Below are positions 15,918 to 60,265 of a DNA stretch of 64,000 nt, in pieces (within the stretch, counting starts at the first letter, position 1; every line of letters begins with the position of its first letter). Both the position numbers and the translations under genes were made by a program. A model generated the notes under the pieces. The model made no database searches and was not told the origin of the DNA. It worked only from the letters and a program-made list of their open reading frames with translations. The stretch lies in NCBI RefSeq assembly GCF_009914755.1, contig NC_060947.1; one strand, 5' to 3'. Source of the stretch: the human T2T-CHM13v2.0 reference genome, Homo sapiens.

Positions 15918-16369
15918 GGGAGGCAGCCAAGATGGCCAAATAGGAACAGCTCCAGTCTACAGCTCCCAGCGTGAGTGACGCAGAAGACGGGTGATTTCTG
16001 CATTTCCATCTGAGGTACCAGGTTCATCTCACTAGGGAGTGCAAGACAGTGGGTGCAGGACAGTGGGTGCAGTGCACCATGAGCTAACCAAAGCAGGGCG
16101 AGGCATTGCCTCACTCGCGAAGCACAAGGGATCAGGGAGTTCCCTTTCCTAGTAAAAGAAAGGTGTGACAGATGGCACCTGGAAAATCGGGTCACTCCCA
16201 CTCTAATACTTCGCTTTTCTGACGGGCTTAAAAAACGGTGCACCAGGAGATTATATCCCGCACCTGGCTCAGAGGGTCCTACGGCCACAGAGCCTCGCTG
16301 ATTGCTAGCACAGCAGTCTGAGATCAAACTGCAAGGCGGCAGCGAGGCTAGGGGAGGGGCGCCCGCCAT
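15812..16369 (-). CDS. Extended L1 ORF0-like antisense ORF (185 aa) reading out of the element 5' end
   Basis: The ATG at 16369 gives MAGAPPLASLPPCSLISDCCASNQRGSV..., the L1 ORF0 N-terminus, with no stop until 15812 (ORF track 15812..16438). Expression unknown. Confidence 0.4.
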   Translation of the reverse strand: MAGAPPLASLPPCSLISDCCASNQRGSVAVGPSEPGAGYNLLVHRFLSPSEKRSIRVGVTRFSRCHLSHLSFTRKGNSLIPCASRVRQCLALLWLAHGALHPLSCTHCLALPSEMNLVPQMEMQKSPVFCVTHAGSCRLELFLFGHLGCLPRIYFLFKAEYYSIVCVYHISFIHLSVGRSFAYCK

Positions 16370-16947
16370 TGCCCAGGCTTGCTTAGGTAAACAAAGCAGC
16401 TGGGAAGCTCGAACTGGGTGGAGCCCACCACAGCTCAAGGAGGCCTGCCTGCCTCTGTAGGCTCCACCTCTGGGGGCAGGGCACAGACAAAAAGAGAGCA
16501 GTAACCTCTGCAGACTTAAATGTCCCTGTCTGACAGCTTTGAAGAGAGCAGTGGTTCTCCCAGCAAGCAGCTGGAGATCTGAGAATGGGCAGACTGCCTC
16601 CTCAAGTGGGTCCCTGACCCCTGGCCCCCAAGCAGCCTAACTGGGAGGCACCCCCCAGTAGGGGCAGATTGACAACTCACACGGCCAGGTACTCCTCTGA
16701 GACAAAACTTCCAGAGGAACGATCAGACAGCAGCATTCGTGGTTCATGAAAATCTGCAGTTCTGCAGCCACCGCTGCTGATACCCAGGCAAACAGGGTCT
16801 GAGTGGACCTCTAGCAAACTCCAACAGGCCTGCAGCTGAGGATCCTGTCTGTTAGAAGGAAAACTAACAAACGGAAAGGACATCCACACCAAAAACCCAT
16901 CTGTAAATAACCATCATCAAAGGCCAAAAGTAGATAAAACCACAAAG
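15918..16947 (+). promoter_or_regulatory. L1 5'UTR internal sense/antisense promoter with YY1 site and retained 129-bp ZNF93-target segment
   Basis: CAAGATGGC YY1 motif near 15928. The segment tctgagacaaaacttccagagg...ctagcaaactcc (~16696-16822) is present; it is absent from L1PA2/L1HS. Confidence 0.7.
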
Positions 16948-55685: not shown

Positions 55686-57836
55686 GGGGAGGGGCTTCAA
55701 GATGACTGACTAGAGGCATCTGGTATTTACCTCCTCCACAAAGAAGAACCAAAATAGCAAGTAGATAATCATACTTTGAATAGATCATCTAAAAGGAAAC
55801 ACTGGAATTTTCGGGAGAAGTGACAGGAAGCATCTAAGGCAAGGGAGGAGAGGGAAGTGAGTGAGGCAGCCTTCTCATCCAGGATTGGCTGGGAGCCCAG
55901 AGAGGCTTCCCAATGCAAAGAAAAGGTGAATGAGACATCTCCAGCAATCCACATTCCCACTGAAGACTCCTGCAATCCTAGCCACAGGAGAGTCCCTCGA
56001 CCCTCGTGGGCCCTGAGACTAACACAGGGAGATGCATGGAGATCATATGACAACATTGCTCCAGAGACAGATAGCTCATGCTGAGTCCCACACCCCACAA
56101 GTCCTAAACATTTACACCATAGAGCCATTTTGAGAGCCCAACATCCCACCAGACTGCATCCTGTTCTGGGGCCCAACAGCTCTCACACCTCCACATCCCT
56201 GGATCCCCATTAATTTCCACCATCCACAGCCACTGACACTGCTGGCTGCTGCCACCAAGGTAGGAGCCATTGGCAGTGACCATGCCATCCCCAGCAGCAC
56301 GGCTGCTGCACATTTTCACATGCCCTGAGTACAGACTTTCCTAGCCTGTAACCAACAACACTGCTGGCTGCTGACACCAGGGCAGAAGGGTGAGCCACTG
56401 CTGGCAATCCTACCATCCCCAGCAGGACCTCTGTGCATTTACAATCACCCCAGGGATAGGCTACCCCAGGTACGGATGCCACCTGAAACCAAAGTATGTG
56501 CTCCCCAGCCACCTACCAATGGCTGCTGCCACTGAAAGAAACCTGACCCTTCTCAGCAGAAGGGCTACAACAAAGCCATTGCTGCCCCTACCTGAGCATT
56601 CTGCTGGAGGCCTAGGTATTATTCTTCCCTTGCTTACCATAGCCAGTGCCTACATGCACTGAGAAGGAGGCTGAGGGCACATCCACCTGTACTGGCTTTG
56701 TCCTCGGTGCCCAAGTACACCATTTGGGGACTTAGAGAATACCTTGCTCCATCACCACCATTAGTACCTGAGCATTCCTACCAGGGGCCTGAGGACAGGT
56801 TCATCCAACCTGCCACCATGACCACAGTTGGCACCCACTTACATGTGTCACCTGTGAGCCTGGGGATTGGCATGCACAGCCAACTGCAGCCACTGCCGAC
56901 ACCAGTGTGAACTACTTAAGAGTGAGCGAGTTGTGTACCATGGTTACTGCCATTGTCCAGACCACACCCACTGCCAAGGGGCCAAGAATGTGCCCACCAG
57001 TCCATGCCACCACTGCCACTGCTGGCACCTGAGGACCAAGAATCAGCCTGCCTGGACACACTTCCACCAGTGGAAGGATATGCCATCATGGAGCCCCAAA
57101 ACAGGCATGCTCAGCCTACAACTGCCACCACTGGGGCCAGAGAACTGGCCCAGCTGGTGTCCCTGTGTCCAACAAGACATCAGCAAAGCCTTCATTAAGA
57201 ACTGCACCCCAAGCTACTGAGGAAATCACAGACATCACTAACATTGTTTACAGTCAAATAAATTATACAAATGGAATACTGTGTGCACCCAGGATCAAAG
57301 CCAAAGTGCCCTGCTCAACCAATACCATAGATGTATCTTCAGGGAAAAGTCCTCCCTTGCAAAAATAAAGCAAAAAAAAAAAAAAAAAAATTAAAAGAAA
57401 TGACTGTTACACCAGATGCACAGATATCAAGGTAAGTACCTAAGAAATATAAAAAAGAAAGAAAATATAACATCTCCAAAAGAACACAGTAATCAAAAAT
57501 TTAATACAACATGATCAAGTGGAATTTATCCCAGGGATGCAAGGATGAGATGTAAGCAAATCAAAAAACATGATCCACCACATCAACAGAAAGAATGATA
57601 GAAACCATGTAGTCATCCTGTAGATACAGGAAAATCATTTGAAAAAGTTCAAATCCCTTTATGAAAAAGACTACGCATAGAAGGAACATACCTCAACATA
57701 ATAAAGGCCATAAATTACAAACCCACAGCCAACATCACACTAAATGGAGAAAAGCTGAAAGCCTTTTCCACTAACAACTGGAAAAAGAAAACAATGCCCA
57801 TTTTTACAACTCATTCAATATAATACTGGAAGTCCT
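55686..57836 (+). mobile_element. Old L1 (L1MA/L1M2-like) with 5'UTR; ORF1 start fused to ORF2 RT at ~57493
   Basis: 5' end ggggcttcaagatgactgactagaggcatc; catgatcaagtggaatttatcccagggatgcaagg follows immediately after early ORF1. Confidence 0.75.
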
Positions 57837-60265
57837 GAATGGTAATGCCTAGGTTTTCTTCTAGGGTTTTTATGGTTTTAGGTCTAACGTTTAAGTCTTT
57901 AATCCATCTTGAATTAATTTTTGTATAAGGTGTAAGGAAGGGATCCAGTGTCAGCTTTCTACATACGGCTAGCCAGTTTTCCCAGCACCATTTATTAAAT
58001 AGGGAATCCTTTCCCCATTACTTGTTTTTGTCAGGGTTGTCAAAGATCAGATAGTTGTAGATATGTGGCATTATTTCTGAGGGCTCTGTTCTGTTCCATT
58101 GATCTATATCTCTGTTCTGGTACCAGTACCATGCTGTTTTGGTTACTGTAGCCTTGCAGTATAGTTTGAAGTCAGGTAGTGTGATGCTTCCAGCTTTGTT
58201 CTTTTGGCTTAGGATTGACTTGGCAATGCGGGCTCTTTTTTGGTTCCATATGAACTTTAAAAGTAGTTTTTTCCAATTCTGTGGAGAAAGTCATTTGTAG
58301 CTTGATGGGGATGGCATTGAATCTATAAATTACCTTGGGTAGTATGACCATTTTCATGATATTGATTCTTCCTACCCATGAGCATGGAATGTTCTTCCAT
58401 TTGTTTGTATCCTCTTTGATTTCATTGAGCAGTGGTTTGTAGTTCTTCTTGAAGAGGTCCTTCACATCCCTTGTAAGTTGGATTCCTAGGTATTTTATTC
58501 TCTTTGAAGCAATTGTGAATGGGAGTTCACTCATGATTTGCCTCTCTGTTTGTCTGTTATTGCTGTATAAGAATGCTTGTGATTTTTGTACATTGATTTT
58601 GTATCCTGAGACTTTGCTGAAGTTGCTTATCAGTTTAAGGAGATTTTGGGCTGAGACAATGAGGTTTTTTAGATATACAATCATGTCATCTGCAAACAGG
58701 GACAATTTGACTTTCTCTTTTCCTAATTGAATACCCTTTATTTCCTTCTCCTGCCTAATTGCCCTGGCCAGAACTTCCAACACCATGTTGAATAAGAGTG
58801 GTGAGAGAGGGCATCCCTGTCTTGTGCCAGTATTCAAAGGGAATGCTTCCAGTTTTTTCCCATTCAGTATGATATTGGCTGTGGGTTTGTCATAGATAGC
58901 TCTTATTATTTTGAGATACATCCCATCAATACCTAATTTATTGAGAGTTTTTAGTATGAAGAGTTGTTGAATTTGGTCAAAGGCCTTTTCTGCATCTATT
59001 GAGATAATCATGTGTTTTTTGTCTTTGGTTCTGTTTATATGCTGGATTACATTTATTGATTTGTGTATATTGAACCAGCCTTGCATCCCAGGGATGAAGC
59101 ACACTTGATCATGGTGGGTAAGCTTTTTGATGTGCTGCTGGATTTGGTTTACAAGTATTTTATTGAGGATTTTTGCATCACTGGGCAAGGACTTCATGTC
59201 TAAAACACCAAAAGCAATGGCAACAAAAGCCAAAATTGACAAATGGGATCTAATTAAACTAAAAAGCTTCTGCACAGCAAAAGAAACTACCATCAGAGTG
59301 AACAGGCAACCTACAAGATGGGAGAAAATTTTTGCAACCTACTCATCTGACAAAGGGCTAATATCCAGAATCTACAATGAACTCAAACAAATTTACATGA
59401 AAAAAAACAAACAACCCCATCAAAAAGTGGGTGAAGGATATGAACAGACACTCCTCAAAAGAAGACATTTATGCAGCCAAAAAACACATGAAAAAATGCT
59501 CACCATCACTGGCCATCAGAGAAATGCAAATCAAAACCACAATGAGATACCATCTCACACCAGTTAGAATGGCAGTTATTAAAAAGGCAGGAAACAACAG
59601 GTGCTGGAGAGGATGTGAAGAAATAGGAACACTTTTACACTGTTGGTGGGACTGTCAACTAGTTCAACCGTTGTGGAAGTCAGTGTGGCGATTCCTCAGG
59701 GATCTAGAACTAGAAATACCATTTGACCCAGCCATCCCATTACTGGGTGTATACCCAAGGGATTATAAATCATGCTGCTATAAAGACACATGCACACGTA
59801 TGTTTATTGTGGCACTATTCACAATAGCAAAGACTTGGAACCAACCCAAATGTCCAACAATGATAGACTGGATTAAGAAAATATGGCACATATACAACAT
59901 GGAATACTATGCAGCCATAAAAAATGATGAGTTCATGTCCTTTGTAGGGACATGGATGAAATTGGAAATCATCATTCTCAGTAAACTAGCGCAAGAACAA
60001 AAAACCAAACACCGCATGTTCTCACTCATAGGTGGGAACTGAACAATGAGAACACATGGACACAGGAAGGGGAACATCACACTCTGGGTACTGTTGTGGG
60101 GTGGGGGGAGGGGGGAGGGATAGCATTAGGAGATATACCTAATGCTCAATGACGAGTTAATGGGTGAAGCACACCAGCATGGCACATGTATACATATGTA
60201 ACTAACCTGCACATTATGCACATGTACCCTAAAACTTAAAGTATAATTAAAAAAAAAAAAAGAAA
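57837..60265 (+). mobile_element. 5'-inverted (twin-primed) L1PA3-like insertion (element D)
   Basis: Antisense RT segment 57837-59180, sense 3' part 59182-60265 with poly-A. TSD ataatactggaagtcct at 57820-57836 and 60266-60282. Confidence 0.94.

What the first reader, a model, noticed from the sequence alone, without database searches (positions are those of the whole stretch)
15918..60265. Four neighbouring L1PA copies share non-consensus mutations in a reticulate pattern: candidate local gene-conversion network
Seen in sequence: A (15918-22083), B (37648-43735), C (51338-53006) and D (57837-60265) each have their own TSD, so they are separate insertions, and B has L1PA4-like ends while A is L1PA3-like. 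They nevertheless share substitutions absent from the L1HS/L1PA consensus as I recall it, mostly at non-CpG sites. A+B share NAPMKR (~18090/41585), PIRGSE (19381/40333), ILILKP (19573/40141), IPGTQG (19729/39985), VKELFKDNY (20357,20369/39357,39345) and gacctcctg...cacggaaa at the ORF1 end. A+B+D share KLYCKA (20655/39058/58157). A+C+D share NLIVSA (20152/52585/58662), caaccGttg and cacattAtgc. A+C share MSETPK and KAKMDK (21008,21043/52416,52381). B+C share gcatgTgcaa (38723/52434), only ~18 bp from an A-type site in C. B+D share ctgaCactgg (38851/57950). A+D share accaGaacag, aagTaatggg and KKIWH. C+D share LYSNN, RMAVIK, GCEEIG, GVYPRD and gctCaatg. No single tree explains all six pairings. 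Inference: repeated short-tract non-allelic gene conversion among L1s within ~45 kb, analogous to the homogenisation described for neighbouring Alus.
Basis: partly seen in the sequence, partly recalled or inferred. Interest (0 to 1): 0.8.

Follow-up and report, generated by a model that had tools for sequence, protein, structure and literature searches.

The report
Neighbouring L1 copies swapped rare mutations
Four separately inserted L1 retrotransposon copies lying within 45 kb on the human X chromosome share about seven times more rare mutations than unlinked copies do, most simply because neighbouring copies copied short patches of sequence from one another, which matters for anyone dating or classifying such repeats by their mutations.

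Summary
A, B, C and D are four separate L1PA insertions, each with its own target-site duplication and its own structure.

- **Excess over chance:** against 29 unlinked genomic L1 copies, 25 sites carry an allele shared by at least two of A-D but seen in at most 1 of 29 controls. In 400 random quadruples of unlinked copies the mean was 3.5 and the maximum 11. None of the 25 is a CpG decay and 10 are transversions.
- **Rarity genome-wide:** seven two-site haplotypes shared inside the window occur only 2-5 times in the whole T2T genome. The window copies, plus one copy about 190 kb upstream, make up 2-3 of those occurrences each time.
- **No hidden subfamily:** the single alleles sit near 1%. 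Unlinked double carriers share nothing further with A-D.
- **Different subfamilies:** A and B belong to different subfamily groups.

Old, patchy non-allelic gene conversion among neighbouring L1s is the best explanation (about 0.75). Four of the six pairings exceed chance; B-C and B-D do not. Tracts are poorly resolved, and ape orthologues could not be examined. This is a new instance of a known kind of process.

The parts
15918..22083 (+). Element A: full-length L1PA copy, subfamily group X. Reading frames are broken; the longest ORF2 piece is 479 aa. Probable 12-nt target-site duplication with one mismatch.
37648..43735 (-). Element B: full-length L1PA copy, subfamily group Y (older type). 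Exact 20-nt target-site duplication. It has a 41-bp deletion at A-position 2444-2484, and ORF2 is split into 793 and 310 aa.
51338..52539 (-). Element C, 3' part (A-positions 4967-6175) with its poly(A) end at the left.
52539..53006 (+). Element C, inverted 5' part (A-positions 4189-4659). A-positions 4660-4966 are missing at the junction. Exact 16-nt target-site duplication around the whole element.
57837..59183 (-). Element D, inverted 5' part (A-positions 3714-5062).
59182..60265 (+). Element D, 3' part (A-positions 5071-6157) with poly(A). Exact 17-nt target-site duplication around the whole element.
20357..20369 (+). A+B marker pair in A (partner sites in B: 39357 and 39345). The 26-mer carrying both alleles occurs 5 times in the genome: A, B, a copy at chrX:62,072,182, and one each on chr1 and chr3.
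19514..19573 (+). A+B marker pair in A (partners in B: 40200 and 40141). Of 20 genome matches to B's 75-mer at up to 1 mismatch, only B and A carry both alleles.
21008..21043 (+). A+C marker pair in A (partners in C: 52416 and 52381). The 48-mer with both alleles has 4 exact copies genome-wide (A, C, chr2, chr12). The majority 48-mer has 4,779.
20655..20695 (+). A+D marker pair in A (partners in D: 58157 and 58117; B shares the first site only, at 39058). The exact 57-mer occurs only in A and D. One old chr13 copy carries both alleles plus a further difference.
59504..59882 (+). Candidate C-D exchange block in D (A-positions 5391-5769; in C: 51741-52115, minus strand). It holds C+D markers at 59575, 59618, 59749 and 59759, and the A+C+D marker at 59670. 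The 29-mer across 59749/59759 occurs only in C and D genome-wide. Divergence inside the block is not significantly lowered.
60147..60216 (+). C+D marker plus A+C+D marker in D (partners in C: 51476 and 51407). Of 12 genome matches to C's 85-mer at up to 1 mismatch, only C and D carry both alleles.
39259..39814 (-). Stretch of B (A-positions 3983-4538) that shares five rare alleles with element E outside the window (chrX:62,070,491-62,076,640). It differs from E at 13 of 556 columns, against 31.6 expected.

Best explanation
The four copies were inserted independently, at different times and from different L1PA source variants. Afterwards they exchanged short or patchy stretches of sequence with one another and with other L1 copies in the same few hundred kilobases of chrX.

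The proposed mechanism is non-allelic (ectopic) gene conversion. A break or gap in one copy is repaired by homologous recombination using a neighbouring copy as template. The donor's own mutations are thereby written into the recipient without moving either element.

**Shown:**
- the insertions are independent;
- there is a roughly sevenfold excess of shared rare alleles;
- the shared haplotypes are near-exclusive to this region genome-wide;
- the sharing patterns are mosaic and do not fit a tree.

**Inferred:**
- the recombination mechanism itself;
- that the events are old. The shared alleles sit among about 2% private differences per copy, so exchange probably happened while the partners were still nearly identical and stopped as they diverged;
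- that several events (at least about five) are needed.

Donor and recipient could not be told apart. Some sharing may run through third copies nearby rather than directly between A-D.
For: 1. **Independence.** Each element has its own target-site duplication, truncation point and inversion junction.
2. **Excess.** 25 shared rare-allele sites, against a mean of 3.5 and a maximum of 11 in 400 random quadruples of unlinked copies. Doubletons run at 0.91 per kb among window pairs, against 0.15-0.18 per kb for mixed and unlinked pairs.
3. **Not hotspots.** 0 of 25 are CpG decays and 10 of 25 are transversions. The few control copies that carry one of these alleles are all different loci.
4. **Not a subfamily.** Genome-wide counts of two-site haplotypes:
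   - 4440A+4452C: 5 copies, 3 of them in chrX:62.07-62.29 Mb
   - 5636G+5646G+5650T: 2 copies, C and D
   - 5091G+5126G: 4 exact copies, including A and C
   - 5505A+5557G: C exact, plus one listed unlinked copy; D is known to carry both
   - 4738G+4778G: A, D and one old chr13 copy
   - 3597T+3656T: A and B only
   - 6034C+6103A: C and D only

   The single alleles 5091G and 5126G occur in 55 and 41 of the 96 listed one-mismatch matches, counted by hand from the listing. The majority 48-mer has 4,779 copies. That puts each allele near 1% and the chance expectation for the double haplotype at less than one copy.
5. **Unlinked double carriers are unrelated.** Apart from the alleles they were picked for, the unlinked double carriers (chr1, chr2, chr3, chr5, chr12) share at most two further rare alleles with any one of A-D, in line with the null of 0.34 per kb.
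6. **Cross-subfamily and mosaic.** At 46 non-CpG common-polymorphic sites, B groups with 13 of 29 controls of one type, while A, C and D are of the other type. A, C and D also differ from each other at several such sites while sharing ultra-rare alleles.
7. **The same signal next door and elsewhere.**
   - Element E, about 190-215 kb upstream, shares five rare alleles with B, all within 500 bp. Divergence there is 13 against 31.6 expected.
   - E and F, 36 kb apart, share nine rare alleles.
   - A nested pair of independent L1 insertions on chr2 shares six rare alleles in 2,952 bp.
8. **Precedent.**
   - Conversion among Alus is elevated within about 10 kb and on sex chromosomes (passages in PMC6598467 and PMC8230782, both citing Aleshin and Zhi 2010).
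   - A break in a chromosomal LINE can be repaired from endogenous LINEs in mouse cells, with tracts as short as 13 bp (passage in PMC1920257, citing Tremblay et al. 2000).
Against: - **No clean converted tract inside the window.** Overall identity among A-D (93.8-95.9%) is no higher than A's identity to its best unlinked matches (94-96%).
- **Weak clustering.** Shared sites are only marginally clustered along the element (CD P=0.045, AB 0.09, AD 0.33).
- **No drop in divergence.** In the best C-D candidate block there are 11 mismatching columns against 13.5 expected (P=0.31).
- **No GC bias.** Among shared alleles, 11 are weak-to-strong and 10 strong-to-weak, against 66:79 among private alleles (P=0.64).
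- **No orientation effect.** 2.98 per kb for inverted pairs against 1.92 per kb for direct pairs (P=0.36).
- **Two pairings at chance.** B-C and B-D do not exceed the null.
- **Imperfect polarisation.** It rests on 29 control copies chosen for similarity to A. At least one allele (5620A) is probably an older-subfamily state, and 4738G and 3935T may be.
- **Post hoc window.** The B-E window was chosen after seeing the data.
- **One genome only.** No orthologue or second haplotype could be examined.
Confidence: 0.75

Rival explanations
1. Common descent from very small L1 source lineages. The copies would be siblings or close cousins from rare source elements and carried the shared alleles from birth. 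They would lie together by chance, or because linked insertions were fixed together in a region of low recombination.
For: - The shared alleles look old. They are embedded among about 2% private differences, with no drop in divergence inside the window, as expected if they were present at insertion.
- Shared sites are spread along the elements rather than tightly clustered.
- A, C and D are of the same broad subfamily type.
Against: - A and B are of different subfamily types yet share 9 rare alleles.
- A, C and D differ from one another at several non-CpG subfamily-level sites, such as 4654, 5326, 5370, 5390, 5650 and 5905, so they were not identical at birth.
- The lineages would have almost no members elsewhere: 2-5 copies per haplotype genome-wide. 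The unlinked carriers are otherwise unrelated to A-D.
- L1 is not known to insert near its source (general knowledge, not tested here).
- Patterns {A,B}, {A,C}, {C,D} and {A,C,D} do not nest.
Confidence: 0.1
2. Indirect sharing. A-D did not exchange with each other. Each was converted independently by other L1 copies in the region, including older ones, that carry the same alleles.
For: - 4452C is also carried by E, F and G on chrX:62.03-62.58 Mb.
- 5620A is carried by F, G and an old chr13 copy.
- 6034C is carried by a copy at chrX:62,829,439.
- This shows that third copies in the region hold some of the alleles.
Against: - For most sites (at least 21 of 25), none of the nine extra copies examined, apart from those picked for carrying that allele, has the allele.
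- Several haplotypes exist only in the two window partners genome-wide, which leaves no outside donor in this assembly.
- This is a variant of the same mechanism rather than a different one.
Confidence: 0.08
3. Parallel mutation at mutable sites. The same substitutions arose independently in neighbouring copies.
For: Each single allele recurs in roughly 1% of copies genome-wide. Some coincidence is therefore expected, and it explains B-C and B-D.
Against: - The empirical null built from unlinked copies already includes this effect and gives 3.5 sites, not 25.
- 0 of 25 are CpG decays and 10 of 25 are transversions.
- Two-site haplotypes expected in fewer than one copy by chance occur in two neighbours at once.
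Confidence: 0.03
4. Assembly or polishing artefact, or a change private to the CHM13 cell line, that mixed bases between similar repeats.
For: Only one assembly was available.
Against: - The copies differ by 4-6%, enough for long reads to be placed uniquely.
- The shared bases are isolated sites among many private differences, not recent identical stretches.
- Mis-mapping would not favour physical neighbours over the thousands of equally similar copies elsewhere.
- The same pattern is seen at an unrelated chr2 locus.
Confidence: 0.03

Closest known systems
Non-allelic gene conversion between neighbouring Alu elements (Aleshin and Zhi 2010). I know it only through passages in PMC6598467 and PMC8230782; the paper itself is not held.
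   Same: - Independent retrotransposon insertions share non-diagnostic mutations.
- The effect is tied to physical proximity.
- It is reported as stronger on sex chromosomes, and the present cluster is X-linked.
   Different: - Here the elements are 1.7-6 kb L1 copies rather than 300-bp Alus.
- Sharing involves several partners.
- It is detectable at 5-36 kb inside the window and apparently at about 200 kb (B-E), beyond the roughly 10 kb range quoted for Alus.
[quoted passage not shown] I know it only through a passage and reference in PMC1920257; the paper is not held.
   Same: It supplies the mechanism assumed here. L1 copies serve as templates for homologous repair of other L1 copies, with very short tracts possible.
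   Different: That was an induced break in cultured cells, with donors from across the genome. Here the events are natural, in the germline, old, and apparently restricted to neighbours.
Arm-to-arm gene conversion in inverted repeats and segmental duplications (general knowledge).
   Same: Intrachromosomal copying between paralogous sequences lying tens of kilobases apart.
   Different: Those partners are duplicates kept near-identical. A-D are independent insertions at 94-96% identity with no ongoing homogenisation. A true duplicate pair met in passing (chr7, 1 mismatch in 2,358) looks quite different.
Mosaic or recombinant L1 lineages formed among source elements
   Same: Reticulate patterns of shared variants among L1 sequences.
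   Different: Recombinant source lineages spread their mosaics genome-wide through retrotransposition. Here the mosaics are confined to one chromosomal neighbourhood.

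Membership tests
Non-allelic (interlocus) gene conversion between dispersed repeats | The partners are independent loci, not copies made by duplication of a larger segment. | tested here: met
   The elements have different target-site duplications, truncation points and inversion junctions.
Non-allelic (interlocus) gene conversion between dispersed repeats | The partners share derived variants that the family or subfamily consensus does not explain. | tested here: met
   25 sites are at 0-1 of 29 in controls. Haplotypes occur in 2-5 copies genome-wide. One site (5620A) is probably an older-subfamily state.
Non-allelic (interlocus) gene conversion between dispersed repeats | Phylogenetic incongruence or mosaicism along the sequence. 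| tested here: met
   Polarised patterns {A,B}, {A,C,D}, {C,D}, {A,C} and {A,D} do not nest. A and B are of different subfamily types.
Non-allelic (interlocus) gene conversion between dispersed repeats | Contiguous tracts with lowered divergence between the partners. | tested here: inconclusive
   Clustering P values are 0.045 (CD), 0.09 (AB) and 0.33 (AD). The C-D block has 11 mismatches against 13.5 expected. The B-E stretch has 13 against 31.6, but that window was chosen post hoc.
Non-allelic (interlocus) gene conversion between dispersed repeats | Dependence on physical proximity. | tested here: met
   Window pairs share 0.6-5.5 rare alleles per kb, against 0.34 per kb with unlinked copies. 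Genome-wide carriers of the haplotypes are concentrated in chrX:62.03-62.83 Mb. No formal distance curve was made.
Non-allelic (interlocus) gene conversion between dispersed repeats | A change of state at an orthologous locus after insertion, seen by comparing species or haplotypes. | not testable with these tools
   Only the one human assembly is held.
Non-allelic (interlocus) gene conversion between dispersed repeats | GC-biased transmission (frequent, but not defining). | tested here: not met
   11 weak-to-strong and 10 strong-to-weak among shared alleles, against 66:79 among private alleles (P=0.64). Power is low.
   No Dfam or Repbase consensus is held. I could show only that A, C and D fall in one group and B in another at 46 non-CpG polymorphic sites, and that identity to the sample majority is 97.0, 96.5, 96.6 and 97.2% for A, B, C and D.
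Twin-primed (5'-inverted) L1 insertion, for C and D | A 3' segment with poly(A), plus an inverted upstream segment of the same element, a small gap or overlap at the junction, and one target-site duplication around both. | tested here: met
   - C has segments 4967-6175 (-) and 4189-4659 (+), with 4660-4966 missing.
- D has segments 5071-6157 (+) and 3714-5062 (-).
- Each has a single target-site duplication.
- The mechanism name is recalled.
Segmental duplication as the source of the similarity | The same element structure and co-duplicated flanks. | tested here: not met
   Structures and flanks differ. Compare the true duplicates L078/L079 and L016/L023.

The most novel reading that the evidence does not exclude
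Exchange between L1 copies may be a regional and systematic process rather than a handful of accidents. Across at least 0.8 Mb of pericentromeric Xq, L1 copies of different ages would trade patches soon after each new insertion, while the newcomer is still nearly identical to its neighbours. The exchange might even be coupled to the integration intermediate itself. It may also be favoured because X-linked breaks in the male germline have no homologue to repair from.

If so, roughly a fifth of the apparently private mutations of clustered L1s are borrowed. L1-rich X regions would then evolve partly in concert.
Probability: 0.2. Interest if true: 0.8.

Novelty: new member of a known kind. Interest (0 to 1): 0.58.

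Why it matters
- **Dating and classification.** L1 copies are routinely dated, assigned to subfamilies and used as neutral clocks, on the assumption that each copy mutates independently after insertion. Here 25 shared sites stand beside 182 private rare alleles in four copies, so about a fifth of allele instances are not independent.
- **How general it is.** An unrelated nested L1 pair on chr2 shows the same signal. Clustered L1s may therefore give biased ages and mutation spectra.
- **Ectopic repair.** The data offer a natural record of ectopic homologous repair between dispersed repeats at 5-200 kb in the human germline. Complete ape genomes now make this directly measurable.
- **Prior description.** Five full-text searches turned up no paper describing such a local L1-L1 network. 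The searched library lacks most subscription journals, so this is not proof of absence.

Tried and rejected
- **Whole-element loci.** I used shorter targeted stretches instead.
- **63-bp DNA search.** A search around the A+B pair returned only single-allele carriers plus B and E, and could not give counts. Exact pattern searches replaced it.
- **Older-subfamily states.** I tested whether the rare alleles are simply older-subfamily states, using two old copies (about 90-92% identical to the sample majority). Only 5620A fits; 4738G, 3935T and 4778G appear in one old copy each, at chance level for so diverged a copy.
- **Odd stretch in B.** A suspected divergent patch in B at A-positions 2300-2500 is just a 41-bp deletion.
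- **Negative tests.** GC bias, orientation, clustering of shared sites and lowered divergence in the C-D block were all negative or marginal.
- **Replicates elsewhere.**
  - The chr7 pair is a near-identical duplication and says nothing about conversion.
  - The chr12 pair shares 8 rare alleles, but I did not establish that the two are independent insertions.
- **Unavailable resources.** Tremblay et al. 2000 is not held, and Aleshin and Zhi 2010 was not found in the library.

Full report
**What is there.** The window is human T2T-CHM13 chrX:62,248,001-62,312,000, as stated by the hub and confirmed. Positions below are given as 'A-position', which is window coordinate minus 15,917.

| Element | Window coordinates | Structure |
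|---|---|---|
| A | 15918-22083, + | full length |
| B | 37648-43735, - | full length |
| C | 51338-53006 | 3' part (A-pos 4967-6175) on the minus strand; inverted 5' part (4189-4659) on the plus strand |
| D | 57837-60265 | inverted 5' part (3714-5062, minus); 3' part (5071-6157, plus) |

Aligning A against the window shows these four young L1 copies.

- **Target-site duplications.** B, C and D have exact duplications of 20, 16 and 17 nt. A has a 12-nt one with a single mismatch.
- **Coding capacity.** A and B are dead copies with broken reading frames, and B has a 41-bp internal deletion.
- **Pairwise identity.** It is 93.8-95.9% over A-positions 2690-6140. That is no higher than A's identity to its best unlinked matches, 94-96%.

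**Checking the observation.**
- **Control set.** The window's own genome could be searched. A 1-kb piece of A returned 29 unlinked loci of 4 kb each, which I aligned to A.
- **Shared sites.** Enumerating every variable column gave 25 sites where at least two of A-D share an allele carried by 0 or 1 of the 29 controls. The split was AB 7, CD 6, ACD 3, AD 3, ABD 2, AC 2, BD 1 and BC 1.
- **5' part.**
- **Nature of the changes.** None of the 25 is a CpG decay and 10 are transversions.

**Is it more than chance?**
- **Resampling null.** I drew 400 random quadruples from the 19 control loci with near-full coverage (20 such loci less L023, the duplicate of L016). Each quadruple was masked to the coverage of A-D and counted the same way. 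The mean was 3.5, sd 2.0 and maximum 11, against 25 observed.
- **Doubletons.** Alleles present in exactly two of the 33 elements run at 0.91 per kb among window pairs. Pairs of unlinked copies give 0.18 per kb, a figure that includes one duplicated pair with 47. Window-versus-unlinked pairs give 0.15 per kb.
- **By pair.** Against a null of 0.34 per kb, AB, CD, AD and AC are far above expectation. BD (P=0.05) and BC (P=0.43) are not.

Exact pattern searches of the whole genome give complete counts.

| Haplotype | Query | Carriers of both alleles genome-wide |
|---|---|---|
| 4440A+4452C (A+B) | 26-mer, exact | 5: A, B, chrX:62,072,182, chr1, chr3 |
| 5636G+5646G+5650T (C+D) | 29-mer, exact | 2: C, D |
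| 5091G+5126G (A+C) | 48-mer, exact | 4: A, C, chr2, chr12 |
| 5505A+5557G | C's 68-mer, up to 1 mismatch | C exact; one listed chr5 copy; D (known; 30 rows unlisted) |
| 4738G+4778G | A's 57-mer | A and D exact; one chr13 copy among all 81 matches |
| 3597T+3656T | B's 75-mer, 20 matches | B, A |
| 6034C+6103A | C's 85-mer, 12 matches | C, D |

- **Single-allele frequencies.** For the A+C 48-mer there were 116 one-mismatch matches. All 96 listed ones carry just one of the two alleles, 55 and 41 by my hand count of the listing. The majority version of that 48-mer occurs 4,779 times. Each allele therefore sits near 1%, and the double haplotype is expected in fewer than one copy by chance.
- **Unlinked double carriers.** I fetched them and found that, apart from the alleles they were picked for, each shares at most two further rare alleles with any one of A-D, in line with the null. 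The chr13 copy is a much older element (88% identical to A) whose matches are at the level expected from its many differences.
- **Conclusion.** There is no sizeable lineage carrying these combinations. They are essentially a property of this neighbourhood.

**Different origins.**
- **Control groups.** At 46 non-CpG sites that are commonly polymorphic among the controls, the controls fall into recognisable groups.
- **Placement of the elements.** B, and the outside copy E, carry the pattern of one group, seen in 13 of 29 controls. A, C and D carry the other.
- **A, C and D among themselves.** They also differ from each other at several such sites (for example 4654, 5326, 5370, 5390, 5650 and 5905).
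- **Consequence.** Copies that were not alike at birth nevertheless share ultra-rare alleles. The polarised patterns {A,B}, {A,C,D}, {C,D}, {A,C} and {A,D} cannot be nested in one tree.

**Beyond the window.**
- **Element E** (chrX:62,070,491-62,076,640, about 190-215 kb from A and B) is another 5'-inverted L1 of B's type, only 93% identical to B overall.
  - It shares five rare alleles with B, all within A-positions 4000-4497.
  - In that stretch, B and E differ at 13 of 556 columns. The expectation, allowing for the region's generally lower divergence, is 31.6 (P=1.5e-4, though the window was chosen after seeing the data).
- **Element F** (chrX:62.036 Mb) shares nine rare alleles with E and three or four with A and B.
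- **An older copy** at chrX:62.58 Mb carries 4452C, 5620A and 5462G.
- **A copy at chrX:62,829,439** is one of only four with 6034C in an otherwise perfect 85-mer.

**Elsewhere in the genome.** I followed up pairs of rare-allele carriers that lay close together in the search lists.
- A nested pair of independent L1 insertions on chr2 shares six rare alleles in 2,952 bp.
- A chr12 pair shares eight, but I did not check that the two are independent insertions.
- A chr7 pair is simply a near-identical duplication.

**Interpretation.**
- **Best account.** Non-allelic gene conversion fits best. Breaks in one L1 were repaired from a neighbouring L1, and the donor's mutations were copied across.
- **What it explains.** It accounts for locality, cross-subfamily sharing and reticulation together.
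- **Age of the events.** The shared alleles lie among about 2% private differences per copy. Inside the window, no block shows significantly lowered divergence; the C-D block at 5391-5769 has 11 mismatching columns against 13.5 expected.
- **Why they stopped (inference).** Homologous repair needs long perfect matches. A reasonable inference from general knowledge is that exchange happened soon after each insertion, when partners were nearly identical, and then stopped.
- **Unresolved.** Direction of transfer could not be resolved.
- **Negative or marginal tests.** These were clustering of shared sites (P=0.045-0.33), GC bias and orientation.
- **Limits of polarisation.** It depends on a control set chosen for similarity to A. 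One allele (5620A) is probably an older-subfamily state.

**Rivals.**
- **Descent from tiny source lineages** fits the age of the alleles. It does not fit the cross-subfamily sharing, the non-nesting patterns or the near absence of relatives elsewhere.
- **Parallel mutation** is already included in the empirical null.
- **An assembly artefact** would not favour physical neighbours and would not leave isolated old-looking sites, but it could not be tested directly.
- **Conversion by third copies** is likely for a few sites and is the same mechanism.

**Comparison with what is known.**
- **Alus.** Conversion among neighbouring Alus is reported to act within about 10 kb and more on sex chromosomes. 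I read this in passages of PMC6598467 and PMC8230782, both citing Aleshin and Zhi 2010, which I could not read.
- **LINE repair.** Repair of a LINE break from endogenous LINEs was shown in mouse cells. I read this in a passage of PMC1920257 citing Tremblay et al. 2000, which is not held.
- **Other elements.** PMC8230782 states that most TE conversion studies concern Alus, with some on LTRs.
- **L1 networks.** Five full-text searches found no description of a local network among human L1PA copies. The library omits most subscription journals.
- **Rating.** I therefore rate this a new member of a known kind.

**Verdict.** The decisive test is the state of these sites at the orthologous loci of other apes and in other human haplotypes.

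Noticed in passing
outside the window: G000:C23:62070000-62077200 (L051), about 171-178 kb before the window start: Element E is a 5'-inverted L1PA of B's subfamily type. It shares five rare alleles with B within about 500 bp, and the allele at A-position 1994 with A and B.
   Followed up: partly
outside the window: G000:C23:62035463-62037953 (L074) and G000:C23:62581141-62583631 (L073): Two more chrX L1 copies carry alleles that are rare genome-wide but shared with A and B (4452C, 5620A). L074 also shares nine rare alleles with E, 36 kb away. The exchange zone may therefore span several hundred kilobases.
   Followed up: partly
G000:C23:62829439-62829523 (row; not fetched): This is one of only four copies in the genome with the C+D allele 6034C in an otherwise perfect 85-mer. 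It lies about 0.5 Mb beyond the window.
   Followed up: no
L075 = G000:C2:119428500-119436000: One 5'-inverted L1 is inserted inside another L1. The two independent insertions share six rare alleles in 2,952 bp, four of them within 113 bp. This is the same signal as in the window, at an unrelated autosomal locus.
   Followed up: yes
L076/L077 = G000:C12:33722711-33725201 and 33735704-33738194: Two L1 copies 12 kb apart in inverted orientation differ by 3.4% and share eight rare alleles, five of them within 118 bp. I did not determine whether they are independent insertions or an old duplication.
   Followed up: partly
L078/L079 = G000:C7:54391762-54394252 and 54471454-54473944: Two inverted L1 copies 80 kb apart are nearly identical (1 mismatch in 2,358) and have the same internal structure. 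They are arms of a recent inverted duplication.
   Followed up: yes
L016 (G000:C22:12772575-12776575) and L023 (G000:C14:10074799-10078799): Two control loci on acrocentric short arms share 47 otherwise unique alleles, so they are duplicates of one locus. L023 was left out of the resampling pool.
   Followed up: partly
rows (for example chr6:130.03-130.12 Mb three carriers; chr6:32.21/32.32 Mb; chr10:46.28/46.30 Mb; chr15:17.7-19.2 Mb): Genome-wide carriers of a given rare L1 allele often lie within about 100 kb of each other, far more often than roughly 50 random places would. The cause is either segmental duplication or local exchange; I did not sort out which.
   Followed up: no
window 41238-41427 region (B, A-positions 2444-2484): B has a 41-bp internal deletion in ORF2. 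It briefly looked like a highly divergent patch in window-based comparisons.
   Followed up: yes
window 6-1380, 4028-5336, 57492-57837, 60273-61725, 63612-63998: Much older L1 fragments (68-79% identical to A) flank the young copies. D sits between two such fragments and may have inserted into an old L1. They are too diverged to be likely conversion partners.
   Followed up: no
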